Source of the DNA: the human T2T-CHM13v2.0 reference genome, Homo sapiens
DNA length: 64,000 nucleotides
Assembly (NCBI RefSeq): GCF_009914755.1
Contig: NC_060940.1
Reading direction: 5' to 3' (one strand)
The notes below the pieces were generated by a model. The model did no database searches, was not told where the DNA came from, and saw nothing but the letters and a program-made list of their open reading frames with translations. Numbering within the stretch: the first letter of the stretch is position 1; every line of letters starts with the position of its first letter. This document shows, piece after piece, positions 24,120-55,111 of the stretch. Position numbers and translations under genes: made by a program.

Positions 24120-24531
24120 TGTATTAGTCTGTTCTCACACTGCTATAAAGAGCTTCCTGAGACTGGGTAATTTATAAAGGAAAGAGGTGTAACCAACACA
24201 GTTCCACATGGCTGGGAGGCCTCAGGAAACTTATAATCGGAAAGCAACTTATAGGCAGAAAGCAAATTATAGGCAGAAAGCAAAGGGGAAGGAGAAGCAA
24301 AAACCTTCTTCACATGGCAGCAGGAGAGAGAAGAACGAAGGATGAACTTCCAAACACTTATAAAACTATCACATCTCATGAGAACTCACTCACTATCACA
24401 ATAACAGCATGGGGGAAACTGCCTCCACGATCCAATCACCTCCCACAGGGTCCCTCCCTTGACACGTGGGGATTATGGGGATTACAATTCAAGATGAGAT
24501 TTGGATGGGGACACAGAGCCAAACCATATCA
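24120..24531 (-). mobile_element. MaLR solo LTR (THE1-like)
   Basis: tgtattagtctgttctcacactgct...gagccaaaccatatca with a perfect 5-bp TSD atagt/atagt. Confidence 0.88.
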
Positions 24532-25470
24532 ATAGTTGTGCTATTTTTTTTTATCACACTGGGTGGATGGATGCATTGTATTTTGATGACATCTGAGCCT
24601 TCAAAGCCTATGATAAATTTCTCTTGTTTAGATTTCATGCTTGCTAAGCAAGGAGTATGTATAATATATTCCTAAGTTAAAATTATAATTAATATCCCAG
24701 CATTAAAACCAATCTCCGTTCCACAAGAGTCTCATACTAACTAAATTCTTATTAATAGGAGGAAGAGATTATCTGTCTTTAGAGGGCACAGATATTTCTG
24801 TCCCAGTGACAAGTTGTCATTGAAACAAGAAGAAAAGACATAGGGGTATAAAGGGTTTTATTGCTGTACATGAGTAATTAGGGAAAGACCCTAATAACTT
24901 CGAGGTATGGCCTCCACTGCATGATAGTATCATCCTCCTGTTATGTTTGGGTGGGGCCATAAAATATCAGAAAGCTTTCAGCCATAACAAATTGTCGGGT
25001 TGGGCATCTGATAACAGAAGTCCAGAGGCTCAATTTTCTCTCTAGTTTCTGTTACTTTCAGGGCATAAGTCTTGAAACCTGTACTGAACTTGTTTTCAAA
25101 TCCAGGATGTACCTCTTGATATTGACTACAAGCCCTATTGTAAATACATTGCAATAATCTATATTTAAATTAAAAGTATCATGACACCCTCATCACTTCT
25201 TAACCTGACCCATTCTTATGCTTTGTTTCTAGAGAGCTTACCATATCACTTTTAATAATCCATGCTTAAAAACTTGACTTCATTAACATTGGAAATCTTA
25301 CCAATAGTAGTGGAAAGAATAATGGATTTTTATCTTTTTAGTAAAGATAAAATTAAAAAGGAATTTAGTAACTTTATTGCTATTGCATTAGCTCAGAATC
25401 CTCAATTTCTGCATCATCGCCTATTTTCACTTTTCACTACTAATATTTCGGTGTTTCTTTGAATTTCTAG

Positions 25471-25689
25471 AACACAGTGATGTGGACCAGGATACTGCAC
25501 TGGCAGGTGCGCAGGGCTTCACAGGCTGCCTCTCTGCAGTGCAGCTCAGCCACGTGGCCCCTCTGAAGGCAGCTCTGCACCCCAGCCACCCAGACCCTGT
25601 CACTGTTACAGGACACGTGACTGAGTCCAGCTGTATGGCCCAGCCTGGCACTGATGCCACATCAAGGGAAAGGACACACTCGTTTGCAG
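25471..25689 (+). CDS. CNTNAP4: CNTNAP4 internal coding exon (end of laminin-G4), 219 nt, phase 1-1
   Basis: Acceptor gaatttctAG and donor GCAG|gtgact. Translates (E)HSDVDQDTALAGAQGFTGCLSAVQLSHVAPLKAALHPSHPDPVTVTGHVTESSCMAQPGTDATSRERTHSFA, with the GFTGCLS LamG-end motif. Confidence 0.95.
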
Positions 25690-26023
25690 GTGACTTAGAG
25701 TTCTTCCTCTACTCAGTCACAGACGTAGCTTGTCCATGGAATTTAGAAAACTTCTCATGTGGCTTTCAGGCTACCTTCTCAAGATGGCTTCTTAAAGTTG
25801 GTTTTGTTTGTTTAGCTTTTAGTTCTCCTTCCCATATCTTTTCTAGGTGCTCAACTTCTTATTTATGGGGGTCATTGCCATTGACATTGCTTAAATTGAA
25901 AATAACAGAGATCCCACATTCGCCTCCATAATTCTCTCTGGTTTAAAACATTTATGATGTTTTCAAAATTTCTTCTTTTACTTGCCTATATCACCTTCCC
26001 CCTTTGTTGTGCTTTAACTGCAG

Positions 26024-26095
26024 ATCATTCTGGAACAATAGATGACAGAGAGCCCCTTGCTAATGCAATCAAAAGTGACTCTGCAGTAATTGGAG
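26024..26095 (+). CDS. CNTNAP4: CNTNAP4 juxtamembrane stalk exon, 72 nt, phase 1-1
   Basis: Pyrimidine-rich acceptor ...gctttaactgcAG and donor GAG|gtaata. Translates (D)HSGTIDDREPLANAIKSDSAVIG(G), leading into the TM segment. Confidence 0.94.
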
Positions 26096-26816
26096 GTAAT
26101 AAGAAGCATGAATGAGCTCTTCTTTGGTTGTTCTTATTAATAATGATGATGAATATTTAGCATTGTAGAAACTGTGAAGAATCTGCACATACTCCAAGTG
26201 CCAGGCACTGAATCCTGAGGTCATTGGGGTGATTTACTATTTGTACTGGATTGTCTTTAGAATCTTTCTGAATTCTCTGCTTCCTTGGAGATTTTCAGTA
26301 TAAATAATTGACAATTTCACTGAAGCATGGCACTCAAAGATTAATTGCTAACATGTGTAATAATGAATATTATCAAGCTTGAACATAGCCACAGGTAGTC
26401 ACTAGAGAATTGTGAATATATTTGAGTAAATTTCGTTTTTCTTCACTTCTTGGACATATCACTGCTTCTGGAAAGGTTCATGCAAAAAGTAGGAAAAACC
26501 TGAGATTAACACTAGAAGCATATATTTTGTATTGCCTCAAGGCTTAATAAAGATGCTATTTGCATAGTAAACTATTTAAAGATGCTTCTATCAACTAAAT
26601 ATTACACTTTCAGTTGTATTTTTATCAAATATTAGATTAATGAACTAAAAGTGATTAGTAGTAACTTTAAATTGCAGAATTAACACAAAAACTTTTAAAG
26701 TATGTCTCCCTGGAAATGTGACAGCATATTCTCTGATATTTTTTTTCAAAAGCAACTCAAAAAACAAGCTTTTTTTCTTCTTGATTAATGCTCTTAAGAA
26801 TGTTATTAATCAGATT

Positions 26817-27298
26817 ATTGAAATGTTAACTTGTTCACCTTTCTTTACACTCTGAATATGATACGGATATAGAAAGTAAACAATTATTCTGTTGCATTGC
26901 CAGGGAGATACAATTTTAAAGTTTTTGTGCCAGTAATATGATTATTCATATATGAAATATGAATATTTCGTTTGCAGGTGACTTAGAGTTCTTCCTCTAT
27001 TCAGTCACAAACCCAGCTTGTCCATGGAATTTAGAAAACTTCTCATGTGGCTTTCAGGCTACCTTCTCAAGATGGCTTCTTAAAGTTGGTTTTGTTTGTT
27101 TAGCTTTTAGTTCTCTTTCCCATTTCTCTTCTAGGTGCTCAACTTGTTATTTATTCATATCATATATGAATAATCGTATTACTGGCACAAAAACTTTAAA
27201 ATTGTATCTCCCTGGCAGGGCAACAGGATAATTGTTTACTTTCTATATCCATATCATATTCAGAGTGTAAAGAAAGGTGAACCACTTAACATTTCAAT
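26817..27298. repeat. Long inverted repeat (arms 26817-26965 and 27152-27298) enclosing a duplicated copy of 25680-25866
   Basis: Manual alignment: the arms are reverse complements with 7 mismatches and one 2-nt indel. Segment 26968-27154 matches 25680-25866 at 179/187 with no gaps. Confidence 0.95.
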
Positions 27299-29244
27299 TT
27301 GGGCAATTTATGTGGCTTTATACCTGATTCATTTGGATGTATTTTTTCTATTCATCTAGACATATATTGCTTTCAAGTAGTTAGGATTTTATTTGGACAG
27401 CAAATAATACCAGTCAAATCTTTGTGTGGATATTAACTCCCCCATGCTATTTCAGTTGCTTTTCTGTTTCTCAAGTTAATGATGTACAAATTAAAGTTAT
27501 AAAAAATAGGATTCCCATTTAATCACCAAACATGCAAAACAAAAAACCCAAAACAAACAAAAAAACTCTATTTGAAGAGGAGTTAATAATTGTATGTCTA
27601 AAAGAAACACGTTATACAGTAAAAACTCACTTAAAGCTATAGTATTTACAATGTGTCCAAGAGTTTAAGCTAGAATTCCTGGTCAAGCAAGTTGTCTCAG
27701 TCTTATAATATTGCTTTTTCCAGACATTCAACCAGGATAGATTCAGGTAAATACAGATACAGAGACAGATAGAAATATAGAGTGGTATATAGTCATCAAG
27801 CCAATGCTAGAACAAAATATTTAATCTCTAGACTATTGTTGTTTTGCTCAAACATCATTGGCAAGATTTACAGAGTTAAACAAGAAGTGCATTGATAAGT
27901 CATCCTAAAGTTATTCTAGAATAGAAACAAGTTACAGTTCATCTGTGAAATTCTCACTTAGCTCAAATTCACAGGACAGAAACAATATGGAAGGTTTGTA
28001 GTTCAGGGGCTTGCCAGGGTCCCTGAAACTAGTGATGTCTGGTTTTGGTCATTGCAGAGACTAAACTTCAGAAGCAGAGCATCTGGTAATGGCCATGTAA
28101 CCTCTGAAGGCCTTGTCTGGGCCACACACAATTTATTTGCTAAATCATAATGTATCGTCCTCCAGTGTGTTACACAATCTGGTAGAACTGTGGTAGAATC
28201 CTTTGTTCATTGTCTAGTCACTCATAAATTGCACCCACTATGTAATAATAATTAACCCATCCAAGGATTTTCCAAATTGGCTAATCCCCCTATGTTCTAC
28301 ATCTTAGATGATTTTTTTTTACTTGCAAAATGAATGGTATAAGATGGGATAATTTATTTAATAATACATTTAAAAGTGGTGACCCAGATGTGGTAGGGGG
28401 TTTCTGGCCAGGCTACCCAGATACAGATAGATTTAGCCAGAGAGAAAGCTATATATATACATCTTCATAAAAGCAGATTCACACAGTGCTTTAGGTGCAG
28501 CATCATAGAGGCTGGCCACATTTTATTCATAATAACTAATTTATTTTTTATTTTTATATTTTTGGTATAACACGTGTGATCAAAGTTTTTCTTGAGCACA
28601 ACAAATCCTGACATAGCACTTTCCCCAAATTAAGTGCTAAATTACATACATGGAACAAACAAGTTCCAGAGGCCATCCCTGATTTTGACTGTCTGGATAT
28701 TCTGTCTCGGCCAATGTAACATTCATTTTATAATTGTAGTTGTCTGCTGTCTATATCATATTTCAGAATTTTTCACATTGAAATTGTTCAGAATCTTTCT
28801 CTTCAAGCCAGAGGCCTATAACTAGCCTGTAGAAATATTTATAGCAATTCAACTGTTTATTTTTTCTAAAATGAGAAGCAAAATATGTAACAACAAATAT
28901 TCTGATTAAAGTTATTCATTAATTAATATGACTAATAACAAAAGCAATCATATTTATTAATGAATTCTTCAGATTTCATGTACAGAATTTGGTTACCACA
29001 TTTATATTAATCAGCAACGATTTTCTACCTGTCTCAGGTAAGGCTGACCTAGCCAAAAATTGGCTTGGCTATTGGACGTGCTCTAATTGGCCAGGGTGAA
29101 TCGGCCTAGCAGGTTATATGCACAGGAATCTGTTGTGATTAATAAAAACCTTCAAATCTTTGACTTCCTCGCACTCCGTTACAGTTGTATACATTTGCTT
29201 TAGAATGGAGTCTTAGTTTTACCATATGAGATTTGATTCACATT

Positions 29245-43536: not shown

Positions 43537-43890
<354 letters not shown>

Positions 43891-44397
43891 TCATTTAATT
43901 AAAGCTTGACCCTTGACTGTAAGTCTTTTCAGTGTTCTGTGTGTTAAAATGGGAAATATACATAAAGTACTTCTGGTGCACCCTGAAGTGTGATGCACAG
44001 AAAACTTTGCTCTTCAGTTATAATTCTTATATTGTCCAGCCCTCGTATCTCTTATTTGCTCTTAATAAAATATGCTAGCCTCCATTCCAATTTTTCACAT
44101 TTTAAGAAAGCGTGCTGTCATAATCAGTTATTTATTTTTGCCTGTTCAGCAGTAATCATGCCACCATGTAGAACTGACAGCTGGTTGCTCAATAATTATT
44201 TGATGCAAAACTTTCTTCTTTTGAGTTCATGTAATATATATATATAAACATGTTATATATATAACATGAACATATATATAACATGAACATATATATAACG
44301 TGATATATATATATACACAAAGACACACACAGTGGGTTGACAATTACAAACACTGTTATAAGTATTTTCATTAAAAGAAAGAGGGTATAGTTTGAGG

Positions 44398-44609
44398 ATA
44401 ATAAATTAGGCAGTGCATTTGAATTGGAAAAAATTGGGAGTTTTCAATATCGCAATGGCCTTAGATAAGTCAATGGGTATATCATATTTTCTAATACAGT
44501 TCTAATAATAAATTAGGCAGTGCATTTGAATTGGAAAAATTTGGGAGTTTTCAATATTGCAATGGTCTTACATAAGTCCTTGGGTGTATCATATTTTCTA
44601 ATACAGTTC

Positions 44610-44610
<1 letters not shown>
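44398..44610. repeat. Tandem duplication, 2 x ~107 bp
   Basis: Units start ataataaattaggcagtgcatttgaattgg at 44398 and 44505, and both end tcatattttctaatacagttct. Confidence 0.95.
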
Positions 44611-45532
<922 letters not shown>

Positions 45533-50217: not shown

Positions 50218-50543
<326 letters not shown>

Positions 50544-51199
50544 AGACCCCAACTTTAGAATTTGAAACAGAATGCTGAGAAAACAAAGGAATATATTGAG
50601 ATATAACACAGATATAGACTGGGATAATGATATCTCATTTCAAAAGGTTGGATGCCTCTTTCAAGGAGGGAAGCGATAGTTATTTTGCTCTTAGGTCTAA
50701 ATTTTTTAAACCAGTCTAATCATCAGAATCATATGAAAATCTCTTTTGTTGTCATTATTATTATTATTATTTTATTATTATATTTAACCATTTGTAAGAG
50801 GGAAACTAAGGCCAAAGAGGGTTGGGGTGGAGGCAGGGATGGTTAATGGGTACCAAAAAAAAAAAAATTTAGAGCAGTTTCTTTTTTTTTAAATTTGTTG
50901 TGAGCCTATCATGATGAACGTATCCAATAAGCGTATTTTAAATCTGAATCTGGATATCGAAAGAGGTAAGAGTGACAGGTAAAAAGGGAAGTAATTTGCG
51001 AAAGAATTATAAAAGTTATCAGGGAGTATGAGATAACTCAATTATAAGATAGAAATAGAACAGTCAGGAAATCATTTACTCATTTGTTTGTTTGCTTTTC
51101 CTATGAACTTTTTCCAAAAATCACCATTTGTGAAATTATGATTTAAAACACAAAAACAAAACTTTAAATATATGAAATAGTAAATGTGTCGAGGAATTT

Positions 51200-51380
51200 G
51201 AAGGGCAAGTTGTTATGGATAGCCATAATTGTCCATTTTAATGTACACACATATCACTGGGGATCTTGTTGAAGCTGTTTCTGATTTAGAAAGTCCGGGG
51301 TTGGCCCTGAGCGTCTGCATTTCTAACAAACTTCCAAGGATGCAGATGCTGCTGGTCGGTGGACCACACTTTGAATAGTG
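51200..51380. mobile_element. MER5A hAT MITE
   Basis: atcactggggatcttgtt...tctgcatttctaacaaacttccaaggatgcagatgctgctggtc...ggaccacactttgaatag. Confidence 0.7.
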
Positions 51381-51520
51381 ATATTTTAAATTGAGTGCAT
51401 ACACGTCCGTGAGCAACTATATTTTGAACTACCAGTTGGGGAGAGAACACAAAGGAAAATCAGAGAATTATGTCATTACTTGTTGGATATATAGTTTTAT
51501 AGAAATAAATCTTTTGTGAA

Positions 51521-51881
51521 TGTTAAATTAAATTTGATCTAAAGCTCCCTGTCTGTCACGAAGGGCAACCTAACTTGATATGTAAACAAACCACAGCCGA
51601 ACGGGAGTAAGTAACGAATCACTGAGTGACAGCCAATCACAGCACTCAAGCTTCAGCCAATCACAGGTGGCCAATTGATCAGAGCGTGCCTATATAAGGG
51701 AAATGCCGAGCCCCAACGAATCAATTTTGTAAGTAATGACCCTTTTCAGTCCCTGAGTACTGCCTGCCCACTTTGCTGGATGAAGCTCTGTGAACTCTTC
51801 CTGGTTCTTAGTACTGCCTAATTCATGAATCCTTCTTTGCTCAAATGAACTCAAAGTTAATTTAAAGTTTTTATTCTAACA
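51521..51881 (+). mobile_element. ERV1 solo LTR (MER57-like)
   Basis: tgttaaattaaatttgatctaaagct...cagccaatcac x2...attcatgaatccttctttgctcaaat...aaca, 4-bp TSD tgaa/tgag. Confidence 0.7.
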
Positions 51882-52649
51882 TGAGACTCTTTCTCCCATG
51901 AGACTTTGCATGAGGGAGAACAGTCGCTAATTAACAGCCAGTTCTTGAAATCACGCAGTCCTGAAATCCAGCTGATGCTGCTCAGCAGAGAAGCAGATGT
52001 TTGGAGGTAAGAGTTGATTAGGTAGAATCTGGGAGGGAAAATATTTAAGTTAAATGTGTTAAAATATTTGAAGGAGTAAAAAATCTTTGAGATTTTTAGA
52101 TTTTAGAAATCCCCAGGTGCAAAAACTCTGGGAGTGGACATGCATCACTTTGCATAATGGGAAGTTTCTACCACATTTGTATTAGTTTGCTTTTGTCATA
52201 CATTTCCTCTGCTTCAGAGATACATACTGTGAGTTTCATTAGCAAATTTCACATTAAAATTTAAGCAGGTGTAAAAGTCTTGTTATTTTGCAAGACTTAA
52301 ACATCTACTTTTTGTAAAAAATAAAATGTTTAAGCGTTTTCTGTTAAAACTAAATCCAGGTTTCAGTGTTAGAGCTCCAACTTCCCTCAGCTGTAGCCAT
52401 AACTTCATGTTGATTGTTATTGGGCGTCTTTAAAAAAATGTACTTTCTTTTATAGTATGTGAAAACTATATAGGCATTATTGCAGATTTCTAAACGAGTT
52501 ATTTCTCTAAGATGAATCCAATAAAACAGTGTCTTAACATGAAGTGACTTTGTCCCTGTGGTCCAAAACTGTGGTAAAGTCCCTGCATTTGTGTAACATT
52601 TCCCATCTGGGTAGGCAAGTGTGATAGTCATTGAATGGGGCTTTTCCCC

Positions 52650-53019
52650 TGATATGATTTTGATTCGCATCTGTGCCCAAATCTCATGTCAAATATGAGG
52701 AGGGGCTTGGTGGGAGGTGATTGGAGCATGGGGGCGGATGTTGCCCTTGGTGTTCTTATGATAGTAAGCGAGTTCTCATGAGATCTGATGTAAAAAAAGT
52801 GTGTCACACTTCTCCCTTATCTGTCTCTCTCTGCTGCTCGGCCATGGTAAGACATGCTTGCTTCCCCTTCCCCTTGTGCCATGATTATAAGTTTCCTGAG
52901 GCCTCCTACCCATGCTTCCTATACAGCCTGTGGAGCTGTGAATCAATTAAACCTCTTTTCTTCACAAATTACCCAGTCTCAGGTAGTTCTTTATAGCAGT
53001 GTGAAAATGGACTAATACA
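52650..53019 (+). mobile_element. MaLR solo LTR (MSTA-like)
   Basis: tgatatgatt...aaatctcatg...gattataagtttcctgaggcc...ggactaataca. Confidence 0.85.
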
Positions 53020-53780
53020 CCCCTTCTCCCCTCACCCGATGACCTTCAGAATGTTGGTCATATATAAATTCAAATACATCTGGCTTAGTGTATATAAAAT
53101 AATTATTTAACTTAGGACTTTACAAGCTAACAAGTAGCTAAGAAATACTAAATGACATTAGTGATACATGATAGATGATAGATGGGCATATTTGCTGGCA
53201 AACCTATGGAAATCATTTATATTCTCAAATCTAATATAACAGTGACCTTGTGTTACTACCAATGAGGATTAAGGGATGAGTTCCTGGTGCTGTAAAGTCT
53301 CTTCAAAATTGCCCTTTCTCATCTCTTTGTACATTTCTTGTACCAATTCTGGTCCTTAACCGCTGGACACAGGGTCTTGAATGACTTCTGCATTTGCTCC
53401 ATGCTTGCCCATCACTCTGTATCATATTTTGTCATTCTCTTTCAAAAGTCCTCTACCACTTCCATAGGAATACCACTTTACCAATTGTGTATTCACATGT
53501 ATTAGTTTTCTATGCAATTTGATATCTTGGGGTTCTTGATTTGTGCTATATTGTGTATCTGTTTTCAGGATTAAGGGGGGGAGTGTCAACTTACCCTAAT
53601 GTTATGTCCTGAATCATCTTATCTTCTATAACAGTGGTTTTCAAGCTTTTTGAAGTCTTTTACAAATCCCCAAGCCTAGGCTATACTCTAGACCAATAAA
53701 ATTAGAATCCCTGGGGAAGGACCCATGCTCTGGTATTTTGAACTTCCTGGAGAGCCCACCATCAGCCAAGTACAAGAGCC

Positions 53781-54193
53781 TAATATGGTTTGGATCTATG
53801 TCCCAACCCAAATCTCATGTTGAAACGTAATCCCCAATGCTGGAGGTGGGGCCTGGTGGGAGCTGGTTGGATCATGGGGGTGGTTTCTCATGGTTTAACA
53901 CCATGCCTCCTTGGTGTTGTCGTCGTGATACTGAGTTCTTGTGAGAGCTGGTTGTTTAAAAGTGTGTCATACCTTCCCTTCCTCTCCCTTCCTCCTGTTC
54001 CTGCCATGTAACACATGCCTGCTTCCTCTTGCGCTTCCACCATGATTGTAAGTTTCCTGAGGCCTCCCCAGAAACAGAAGCCACCATACTTCCTGTACAG
54101 TCTGCAGAACCATGAGCCAATTACACCTCTTTTCTTTATAAATTACCTTGTCTCAGGTATTTATTTATAGCATTGCAAGAACAGACTAATACA
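53781..54193 (+). mobile_element. MaLR solo LTR (MSTB-like)
   Basis: taatatggtttggatc...cagactaataca with a perfect TSD gagcc/gagcc. Confidence 0.88.
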
Positions 54194-54791
54194 GAGCCCA
54201 TGTTCTAAGAGGCTTTTCCTCATTACATGCACATGGCATCTATGTTCTTGCTAGTCATATCCACTATACTCCTCCGAAGAACCCTCTAGACTCCAGGCGA
54301 GGCTGATAATACCAGTGTCACTCTAAGCACTAGGCATGCAAGTCAACTTGACTCAGCACTGCCATGACAATTTCTCACAACCCCTCACCTCTAATGATTG
54401 ATCTACCTCCTACCTTGCTCTTCTTCAAAGCCAGTAACCTAATTCCAGAGAGAAGCTTCAGGTTTTCATTTGAAATAATTATGTTCAGGGACATTTGGAA
54501 AGCCATTCTTCCATGTTAATAAACCAAATCTTACGACTGTGGTCTTCATTTTTCTTCAAAACTTTTTTCTTATGCCAAAACAATCTGCCAAACTTATAGC
54601 CATATTTTGCAACCAAAGATTTTTCCAATGGAAAAACAAACACACAAAAATCTGTAACTCATTCTCTTCCCATTAGGAGAAATTAAAATAGGAACATATT
54701 GTGAAGCTCCTATTTAAATTTTTTTATTTTTTAATTTGTATTCATAAGAGACAAAATATTAGGTAATTCAGTTATTAAATATATGCATTTT

Positions 54792-55111
<320 letters not shown>

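What the first reader, a model, noticed from the sequence alone, without database searches (positions are those of the whole stretch)
26817..27298. Intronic fold-back element: ~149-bp inverted arms whose loop is a captured copy of an upstream exon-intron junction
Seen: 26817-26965 and 27152-27298 are reverse complements (7 mismatches plus one 2-nt indel, ~95%). The spacer 26968-27154 is an ungapped copy of 25680-25866 (179/187, offset 1,288). That source covers the last 10 nt of the LamG4 exon, its GCAG|GTGACT donor and the first ~177 nt of intron. The copy overlaps the right arm by a 3-nt microhomology (tat). The arms are not any repeat I recognise, and I see no target-site duplication. Inference: the similar divergence of both parts suggests one template-switching event (FoSTeS/MMBIR type: copy a nearby segment, then fold back). 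The result looks like a Pack-MULE (long TIRs around a gene fragment) without a transposase. In pre-mRNA it would form a ~147-bp duplex with 3 G.U wobbles and an A:C mismatch (A27251 opposite C26864), a likely ADAR substrate. It would display a duplicate splice signal in the loop, within the intron preceding the TM exon.
Basis: partly seen in the sequence, partly recalled or inferred. Interest (0 to 1): 0.85.

Follow-up and report, generated by a model that had tools for sequence, protein, structure and literature searches.

The report
Intronic fold-back duplication in CNTNAP4
A one-off copying accident in an intron of the human neuronal gene CNTNAP4 made a long hairpin-forming inverted duplication around a copied piece of an upstream exon-intron junction, and an annotated alternative exon with an early stop lies inside it.

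Summary
Arms 26817-26965 and 27152-27298 are reverse complements (7 mismatches plus one 2-nt indel). The spacer 26968-27154 copies 25680-25866 (179/187). That source is the last 10 nt of exon 22, its donor and 177 nt of intron 22.

Arm, loop source and upstream flank occur nowhere else in the 3.1-Gb assembly. A control repeat gave 5,243 candidates. There is no target-site duplication, so this is not a MITE or Pack-MULE.

Arms and loop diverge equally (4.8% and 4.3%). This fits one multi-step template-switch event of roughly catarrhine age. One event versus two close events, and which arm is ancestral, need primate outgroups that the tools lack.

- The annotated alternative exon 27135-27276 lies wholly inside the element. 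Its acceptor comes from the loop copy and its donor from the right arm. It carries an in-frame TGA before the transmembrane exon.
- In the predicted RNA fold (-252.8 kcal/mol) that donor is locked in the stem.
- An older 45-nt inverted copy lies at 26684-26728.

The element is the most perfect inverted pair in the 284-kb gene. ADAR editing has only gene-level support.

Verdict: a new example of a known kind, of moderate interest.

The parts
25680..25866 (+). Source segment: last 10 nt of exon 22, donor GCAG|GTGACT and the first 177 nt of intron 22
   Evidence: plus the annotation supplied with the finding. Only two copies in the genome.
26684..26728 (+). Older, diverged 45-nt copy of an arm segment. 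It is inverted relative to 26885-26929 (82%) and direct relative to 27186-27230 (78%).
   Evidence: D2, I2; local alignment score 50 vs 21.7 +/- 2.9 for shuffles, 0 of 500 reach it. E 0.012; nhmmer E 0.0016.
26817..26965 (+). Left arm of the fold-back (149 nt, 27.5% G+C). Its inner end carries the 12-nt palindrome TTCATATATGAA.
   Evidence: Single-locus in the genome.
26966..26967 (+). Two bases (tt) at the left-arm/loop junction that match neither the arm partner nor the source
26968..27154 (+). Loop: direct copy of 25680-25866, 179/187 identical. It includes a duplicate of the exon-22 donor at 26974-26982.
   Evidence: The duplicate donor is predicted paired (P unpaired 0.08) and has no annotated use.
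27110..27134 (+). Polypyrimidine tract and AG (gttctctttcccatttctcttctag|G) inherited from the source. It serves as acceptor of the annotated alternative exon.
   Evidence: splice contexts; mean P unpaired 0.78 over 27110-27136.
27135..27276 (+). Annotated alternative exon of CNTNAP4 (142 nt) lying wholly inside the element. It shifts the frame, and an in-frame TGA at 27167-27169 gives ...VIGG-AQLVIYSYHI-stop, ahead of the transmembrane exon.
   Evidence: Annotation supplied with the finding ('exons of other transcripts'). for translation and stop position.
27152..27298 (+). Right arm of the fold-back (147 nt). It contains the donor AAG|GTGAAC of the alternative exon at 27274-27282.
   Evidence: Donor P unpaired 0.00 in the fold.

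Best explanation
This is a locus-specific small complex rearrangement, not a mobile element. About 333 bp were added to intron 23 of CNTNAP4 in one replication or repair episode with serial template switches. The new strand copied 187 nt from the exon-22/intron-22 junction 1.29 kb upstream in direct orientation. It then copied the adjacent about 149 nt of intron in reverse complement and returned to the original template.

The combined divergence of 15/334 (Jukes-Cantor 0.046) places the event roughly between the orangutan and Old World monkey splits. The reference divergences are recalled, so this is an inference.

Consequences, inferred from sequence and annotation:
1. The sense pre-mRNA can fold into a stem of about 147 bp with a 187-nt loop. 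This is the most perfect intramolecular duplex in the gene and a plausible target of ADAR hyper-editing.
2. The rearrangement placed a strong polypyrimidine tract and AG (from the copied intron) 142 nt upstream of a GT in the right arm. That created the annotated exon 27135-27276. The exon carries a stop 107 nt before its 3' junction, so it predicts either an NMD target or a Caspr4 protein without its transmembrane segment.
3. The donor is buried in the stem, so the hairpin should hold inclusion of this exon down.

Most likely the element is a near-neutral scar with these by-products, not a selected device.
For: - Structure and identities.
- Single-locus: the arm had 2 of 2 genome candidates, itself and its partner. 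The loop source had 2 of 2. The flank 26500-26816 had 1 of 1. For 26640-27000 all 6 matches were local. nhmmer over 315,000 nt found only the arm itself, its partner and the old 45-nt copy.
- Positive control: the masked repeat 24342-24576 gave 5,243 first-look candidates, 40 scored at 86-91%, and 11 other copies in the 315 kb.
- No target-site duplication.
- Equal divergence of arms and loop: 7/147 vs 8/187, Fisher p = 1.0.
- The loop abuts both arms, with a 3-nt overlap on one side and 2 filler bases on the other.
- RNA fold -252.8 kcal/mol, z -27.6. Arm duplex alone -214.9 kcal/mol.
- Census of the whole gene: 23 inverted pairs of at least 100 nt within 4 kb in 283,946 nt. This one ranks first at 93.96% identity and has the shortest gap (187 nt). 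The next is 90.98% (122 nt, gap 2,769). The other 21 are at most 84.03%.
- Alternative exon, its splice contexts, frame and stop: plus the supplied annotation.
- Donor P unpaired 0.00 and acceptor tract 0.78.
- Gene-level editing: CNTNAP4 is listed among hyper-edited genes, averaging 15.3 sites prenatally and 23.1 postnatally, adj. P 3.9e-9 (supplement file 4 of PMC9704047). Edits per gene are 4, 23 and 83 in three cell types (supplement file 1 of PMC9151768). A CNTNAP4 'long double-stranded intronic region' was hyper-edited in a minigene in an ADAR1-dependent way (passages of bioRxiv 10.1101/446625).
Against: - No outgroup sequence was available. Neither the single-event claim, nor the age, nor which arm is ancestral has been observed.
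- Only one of the three junctions shows microhomology (3 nt, in 72% A+T sequence), which is weak.
- Gene conversion between copies could make the parts look equally and falsely young. A 101-nt core of the loop has no difference from its source (P about 0.015-0.03), which hints at this.
- None of the editing sources gives coordinates. The gene holds 22 other inverted pairs, mostly Alu-sized, that could carry the reported sites.
- Three supplements searched for CNTNAP4 had nothing (one file was not searched).
- The evidence class behind the alternative exon (cDNA or model) is unknown to me.
- The own-genome search is BLAST-like and skips very common words, so a very old, highly diverged repeat family cannot be excluded. 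No Dfam or RepeatMasker library was on hand.
Confidence: 0.62

Rival explanations
1. Two-step origin. An inverted duplication, possibly a spacer-less palindrome, formed first. Its centre then broke and was repaired with a templated insertion copied from 1.29 kb upstream. Alternatively the 187-nt copy inserted first and the neighbouring segment was later duplicated in inverted orientation.
For: The loop sits exactly at the centre of symmetry, as centre-break repair of an unstable palindrome would leave it (mechanism recalled, not from a call). The inner ends of the arms carry their own short palindrome TTCATATATGAA. The locus already held an older inverted pair, 26684-26728 / 26885-26929, so fold-back formation may recur here.
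Against: Arms and loop have the same divergence (4.8% vs 4.3%, p = 1.0), so the two steps would have had to be close in time. No residual spacer sequence lies between the arms and the loop. One event is more parsimonious.
Confidence: 0.22
2. A non-autonomous DNA transposon (MITE or Pack-MULE-like) with about 149-bp terminal inverted repeats that captured a gene fragment and inserted here.
For: The shape is right: long terminal inverted repeats around a captured exon-intron fragment.
Against: The arms are single-locus in 3.1 Gb while a control repeat returns thousands of candidates. There is no target-site duplication. The captured fragment comes from 1.3 kb away in the same gene. At 5% arm divergence the element is younger than the reported end of DNA-transposon activity in the primate lineage (recalled, not from a call).
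Confidence: 0.03
3. An assembly artefact, such as a chimeric fold-back read, or a private variant of the sequenced genome.
For: Fold-back chimeras are a known artefact of some long-read libraries (recalled). Only one assembly could be examined here.
Against: The copies differ by 4-5%, whereas an artefactual fold-back would be near-identical. An annotated exon, 27135-27276, spans the junction between the loop and the right arm (supplied annotation).
Confidence: 0.02
4. A selected regulatory device. The hairpin, tuned by ADAR editing or helicases, gates a poison exon and so sets how much membrane-anchored Caspr4 is made.
For: The donor is locked in the stem while the acceptor tract is open. The stop lies 107 nt upstream of the last exon junction. 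CNTNAP4 hyper-editing rises from prenatal to postnatal cortex.
Against: There are no inclusion data, no located editing sites and no test of conservation. The arm differences include disruptive C:C, U:C and A:G pairs, as expected for neutral decay. Most young exons of this kind are noise.
Confidence: 0.1

Closest known systems
Short template-switch mutations (four-point model; Loytynoja & Goldman 2017, PMC5453318; passages read)
   Same: A stretch of nearby sequence is copied in reverse complement during replication. This creates a new inverted repeat that can fold as a hairpin. The event type that creates an inverted repeat made up 31% of their human-chimp events.
   Different: [quoted passage not shown] Here the inverted copy is about 149 nt, and a further 187 nt copied in direct orientation from 1.29 kb away lies between the arms. 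At least three switches are therefore needed.
MMBIR/FoSTeS complex rearrangements (Hastings et al. 2009, PMC2621351; search listing and start of abstract only)
   Same: Serial template switches join discontinuous nearby segments in direct and inverted orientation, with little or no homology at the joints.
   Different: Those are described for kb-to-Mb copy-number variants in genomic disorders. This is a 333-bp addition that appears fixed and old. Microhomology is seen at only one of its three joints.
De novo hairpins and miRNA genes from template switching (bioRxiv 10.1101/2023.04.19.537475 / PMC10710096; search listing and start of abstract only)
   Same: A complete stem-loop arises in a single mutational step in the primate lineage.
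   Different: Those stems are of miRNA size. This one is about 147 bp with a 187-nt loop, and no Rfam family matches it.
Inverted Alu pairs as intronic ADAR substrates
   Same: A long intramolecular dsRNA within a neuronal pre-mRNA. CNTNAP4 holds 22 other such pairs.
   Different: The arms are unique sequence rather than repeats. They are 94% identical and 187 nt apart, against at most 84% identity for 21 of the other 22 pairs and gaps of 534-3,789 nt for all 22.
Pack-MULE / MITE
   Same: Long terminal inverted repeats flank a captured gene fragment.
   Different: There is no target-site duplication, no other copy and no transposase relation. The likeness is of shape only.

Membership tests
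Template-switch (MMBIR/FoSTeS-type) complex rearrangement | Inserted material is templated from nearby sequence, in direct and/or inverted orientation | tested here: met
   The 187-nt direct copy comes from 1,288 nt upstream, and the 147-149-nt inverted copy is of adjacent sequence.
Template-switch (MMBIR/FoSTeS-type) complex rearrangement | Microhomology at the breakpoint junctions | tested here: inconclusive
   Loop/right arm: 3 nt (tat). Left arm/loop: none, with 2 filler bases. Outer junction: none. A 3-nt overlap is not rare by chance in A+T-rich sequence (my arithmetic).
Template-switch (MMBIR/FoSTeS-type) complex rearrangement | All segments added in one event, so outgroups lack the whole block at once | not testable with these tools
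   No primate genomes are held. Equal divergence of the parts is consistent with this but is not proof.
MITE / Pack-MULE-type DNA transposon | Target-site duplication flanking the terminal inverted repeats | tested here: not met
   The flanks ...atcagatt and tttgggca... share no duplication.
MITE / Pack-MULE-type DNA transposon | Multiple copies of the terminal repeats in the genome | tested here: not met
   The arm had 2 of 2 candidates, both at this locus. All matches were local. nhmmer found none in 315 kb. The control repeat gave 5,243 candidates. Limit: BLAST-level sensitivity, and no Dfam library.
ADAR hyper-editing substrate | Long, largely perfect intramolecular dsRNA in a transcribed strand | tested here: met
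   A predicted stem of about 147 bp on the sense strand of intron 23, z -27.6. This is a prediction only.
ADAR hyper-editing substrate | Clusters of A-to-G differences between RNA and DNA at these positions | not testable with these tools
   Only gene-level counts for CNTNAP4 were found, plus an unlocated minigene region. The supplements of the bioRxiv preprint are closed, and the journal version is not held.
Poison (NMD-triggering) cassette exon | In-frame stop more than about 50-55 nt upstream of the last exon-exon junction | tested here: met
   The TGA is at 27167-27169 and the exon ends at 27276, 107 nt downstream. The 50-55-nt rule is established knowledge.
Poison (NMD-triggering) cassette exon | Observed inclusion in transcripts and sensitivity to NMD | not testable with these tools
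   Only the supplied RefSeq row 'exons of other transcripts 27135-27276' supports inclusion.

The most novel reading that the evidence does not exclude
One template-switch accident in a catarrhine ancestor built two things at once. It made the most perfect dsRNA of the CNTNAP4 pre-mRNA, and it made a new stop-carrying exon whose donor is locked inside that dsRNA. Hairpin stability would then set the share of transmembrane-anchored Caspr4 in primate neurons. That stability would be tuned by ADAR hyper-editing, which rises after birth and was reported altered in autism cortex. This same hairpin would also be the CNTNAP4 'long double-stranded intronic region' whose editing is repressed by FXR1P.
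Probability: 0.1. Interest if true: 0.65.

Novelty: new member of a known kind. Interest (0 to 1): 0.36.

Why it matters
The element is a clean, datable example of a template-switch rearrangement far larger than the tens-of-bp events catalogued so far. It is caught inside a gene linked to autism. It shows a route to a new exon that needs no transposon: a copied intronic polypyrimidine tract and AG is set next to a GT exposed by inverting neighbouring sequence.

The exon's donor sits inside a 147-bp duplex. The locus is therefore a natural test case for how long dsRNA and ADAR editing interact with splice-site choice. If the hairpin is the CNTNAP4 region already used in an editing minigene, that work could be linked to a splicing outcome.

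If it is a neutral scar, as I think most likely, its value is as an example and as a caution for read mapping and variant calling at this locus.

Tried and rejected
- **Rfam:** the scan of 25000-28500 at E up to 1 gave no miRNA or other family in the element. The only hit was a weak U8-like match outside it.
- **Transposon reading:** rejected on copy number and the missing target-site duplication.
- **Extending the older inverted copy:** beyond its 45-nt core the alignment is gappy and unconvincing. I treat only 26684-26728 / 26885-26929 as real.
- **Using the older copy as an outgroup for the arms:** at 2 of the 3 sites where the arms differ within it, it agrees with the left arm, and at 1 with neither (read). 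This does not show which arm is the original locus.
- **Locating editing sites:**
  - The passages of bioRxiv 10.1101/446625 give no coordinates. Its supplements are closed, and the journal version is not held.
  - CNTNAP4 is absent from the supplements of PMC8594476 (one file not searched), PMC7006430 and PMC4365171.
  - Scripts looking for chr16 positions between 76.2 and 76.6 Mb found none in the copies laid on the script machine, some of them cut at 2 million characters. That coordinate range is recalled, not checked.
  - PMC9151768 and PMC9704047 give gene-level counts only.
- **Prior description in print:** four searches found none. These were CNTNAP4 + RNA editing + intron (3 papers), CNTNAP4 / A-to-I / editing sites, CNTNAP4 with hairpin, dsRNA, poison exon and related terms, and CNTNAP4 + inverted (49 papers, 20 listed, none by title or abstract about this structure).
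- **Pfam check of the 'LamG4' label:** not carried out, so the label stays untested.
- **PMC3123540:** mentions CNTNAP4 only for an ERV-derived promoter, which is not relevant here.

Full report
**1. Is it there?**

Yes. The window sequence and the repeat finder show an inverted pair, 26817-26958 / 27157-27298 (142 nt ungapped, 94%). They also show a direct pair, 25680-25866 / 26968-27154 (187 nt, 96%, spacing 1,288).

A gapped alignment extends the arms to 26817-26965 / 27152-27298 with 7 mismatches and one 2-nt indel. It confirms 179/187 identity for the loop copy.

By the supplied annotation the source is the last 10 nt of exon 22 (25471-25689), the donor GCAG|GTGACT and 177 nt of intron 22. 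The element lies in intron 23, upstream of the last exon. The last exon encodes the hydrophobic stretch LIAVVIFILLCITAIAV.

The junctions read as follows:
- The 'tat' at 27152-27154 is shared by the loop copy and the right arm.
- 'tt' at 26966-26967 matches neither part.
- The outer flanks carry no target-site duplication.

On the sense RNA the 7 mismatches are three U:G, C26864:A27251, A26896:G27219, C26830:C27285 and U26832:C27283.

The structure is far beyond chance:
- E 4.3e-57 for the partner arm and E 7.2e-80 for the loop copy against the whole assembly.
- RNA fold -252.8 kcal/mol against -102.05 +/- 5.46 for 100 shuffles.

**2. Is it a repeat family?**

No, at the sensitivity available.
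- The arm finds only itself and its partner in 3.1 Gb, 2 of 2 first-look candidates.
- The loop source finds only its two copies.
- The flank 26500-26816 finds only itself.
- For 26640-27000 all 6 matches are local.
- As a positive control, the masked repeat 24342-24576 gave 5,243 first-look candidates, with 40 scored at 86-91% identity.
- nhmmer over 315,000 nt (the whole gene plus the rest of the window) found 11 further copies of the control. For the arm it found only the arm itself, its partner and one old fragment.

The own-genome search skips very common words and no Dfam library was on hand. A very old, highly diverged family therefore cannot be strictly excluded.

**3. An older layer.**

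The segment 26684-26728 is a diverged copy of part of the arm. It is inverted relative to 26885-26929 (37/45 identical) and direct relative to 27186-27230 (35/45).

Its local alignment score is 50 against 21.7 +/- 2.9 for 500 dinucleotide shuffles, and none reaches it. The pair is also recovered. Beyond the 45-nt core the similarity is gappy.

No other copy exists in the genome. I therefore read it as an older local inverted duplication rather than the ends of a MITE. The locus appears to have made a fold-back more than once.

**4. Origin.**

Divergence is 7/147 (4.8%) for the arms and 8/187 (4.3%) for the loop. These do not differ (Fisher p = 1.0). Combined they give 15/334, Jukes-Cantor 0.046. 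Two of the arm differences are CpG/TpG sites, one decayed in each arm.

The loop abuts both arms with no spare sequence. This fits a single episode with at least three template switches: back 1.29 kb on the same strand, then onto the complementary or nascent strand of the adjacent segment, then home.

Short events of this general type are documented between human and chimpanzee, but at tens of base pairs (passages of PMC5453318). Larger multi-switch events are described for disease-associated copy-number variants (PMC2621351, listing only).

Against recalled divergences (human-orangutan about 3%, human-macaque about 6%), 4.6% suggests a catarrhine-age event.

Caveats:
- No outgroup could be examined.
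- Gene conversion would bias the age downwards. The central 101 nt of the loop has no difference from the source (P about 0.015 for 8 events, 0.031 for 7), which may be such a trace.
- Only one junction has microhomology.
- A two-step path, with a palindrome formed first and its centre repaired with a templated patch, cannot be separated from a single event.
- Which arm is ancestral is unresolved.

**5. What it does in RNA.**

The supplied annotation lists an exon of other CNTNAP4 transcripts at 27135-27276, entirely inside the element.

Its acceptor is the copied intronic tract gttctctttcccatttctcttctag|G. The same tract exists at 25822-25846 in the source, where no exon is annotated. Its donor is AAG|GTGAAC in the right arm. 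On the sense strand this donor exists only in the right-arm orientation. Whichever arm is ancestral, the exon owes its existence to the rearrangement.

The exon is 142 nt long and shifts the frame. It reads ...VIGG-AQLVIYSYHI and stops at TGA 27167-27169, 107 nt before its 3' junction. That predicts either an NMD target or a protein without the transmembrane and cytoplasmic parts.

In the predicted fold:
- the acceptor tract is open (mean P unpaired 0.78 over 27110-27136);
- the donor and the stop are fully paired (0.00);

I infer that the hairpin restrains use of this exon, and that anything opening the stem would raise it. This is inference and was not observed.

**6. ADAR.**

A census of the whole gene (283,946 nt; loci plus window 1-32946) found 23 inverted pairs of at least 100 nt within 4 kb.
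- This element ranks first in identity (93.96%) and has the shortest loop (187 nt).
- The next is 90.98% (122 nt, 2,769 nt apart).
- The other 21 are at most 84.03%, and mostly 255-328 nt long.

Within the window's part of the gene it is the only inverted pair of at least 60 nt within 5 kb, 1 of 14 in the window. The arms hold 52 and 53 adenosines.

Published data show that CNTNAP4 is edited, but only at gene level:
- It is listed among hyper-edited genes, averaging 15.3 sites prenatally and 23.1 postnatally, adj. P 3.9e-9 (supplement of PMC9704047).
- Edits per gene are 4, 23 and 83 in GABAergic neurons, glutamatergic neurons and oligodendrocytes (supplement of PMC9151768).
- A minigene of a CNTNAP4 'long double-stranded intronic region' showed ADAR1-dependent, FXR1P-repressed hyper-editing (passages of bioRxiv 10.1101/446625).

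I could not see the coordinates. The preprint's supplements are closed and the journal version is not held. Whether that region is this hairpin stays open.

**7. Comparison and verdict.**

The element works like a template-switch rearrangement and like an inverted-Alu-type dsRNA. It is not a member of any transposon family: both target-site duplication and copy number were tested and not met. It matches no Rfam family.

Four searches found no description of it in print.

It is a new and unusually large example of a known mutational kind, with an annotated exon as a by-product. Most likely it is nearly neutral. Interest is moderate.

Noticed in passing
window 25727-25827 and 27015-27115: The central 101 nt of the loop copy has no difference from its source, while all 8 differences lie in the outer 86 nt. 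P is about 0.015, or 0.031 if the adjacent double change counts as one. This could be gene conversion, constraint on an intronic element, or chance.
   Followed up: partly
window 26684-26728: An older 45-nt inverted copy of an arm segment (82% to 26885-26929). It suggests an earlier fold-back event at the same spot.
   Followed up: yes
window 28144-28283 (-): A weak U8 snoRNA-like match at 22.4 bits, below the gathering score of 41, E 0.44. Probably chance.
   Followed up: no
G000:C16, window-relative -28733..-28612 and -25843..-25722: The second-best inverted pair in CNTNAP4: 122 nt, 91% identical, 2,769 nt apart. It is shorter than Alu size. Its nature was not examined.
   Followed up: no
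window 43537-45086 and 50239-55089: Clusters of inverted pairs (130-169 nt, 78-92%) lie in the intergenic part downstream of CNTNAP4. They coincide with stretches listed as masked repeats, so they are presumably inverted interspersed repeats.
   Followed up: no
window 26945-26956 and 27160-27169: Each arm ends, on its loop side, in its own short A+T palindrome: TTCATATATGAA in the left arm, shortened to TCATATATGA in the right arm by the 2-nt indel. This is a possible site of hairpin stalling that could have triggered the switch (read; speculation).
   Followed up: no
window 24342-24576: This masked repeat, used as a control, belongs to an abundant family. It gave 5,243 first-look candidates genome-wide at 86-91% identity over about 190 nt, and 11 other copies in 315 kb. 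The family name is unknown to me.
   Followed up: partly
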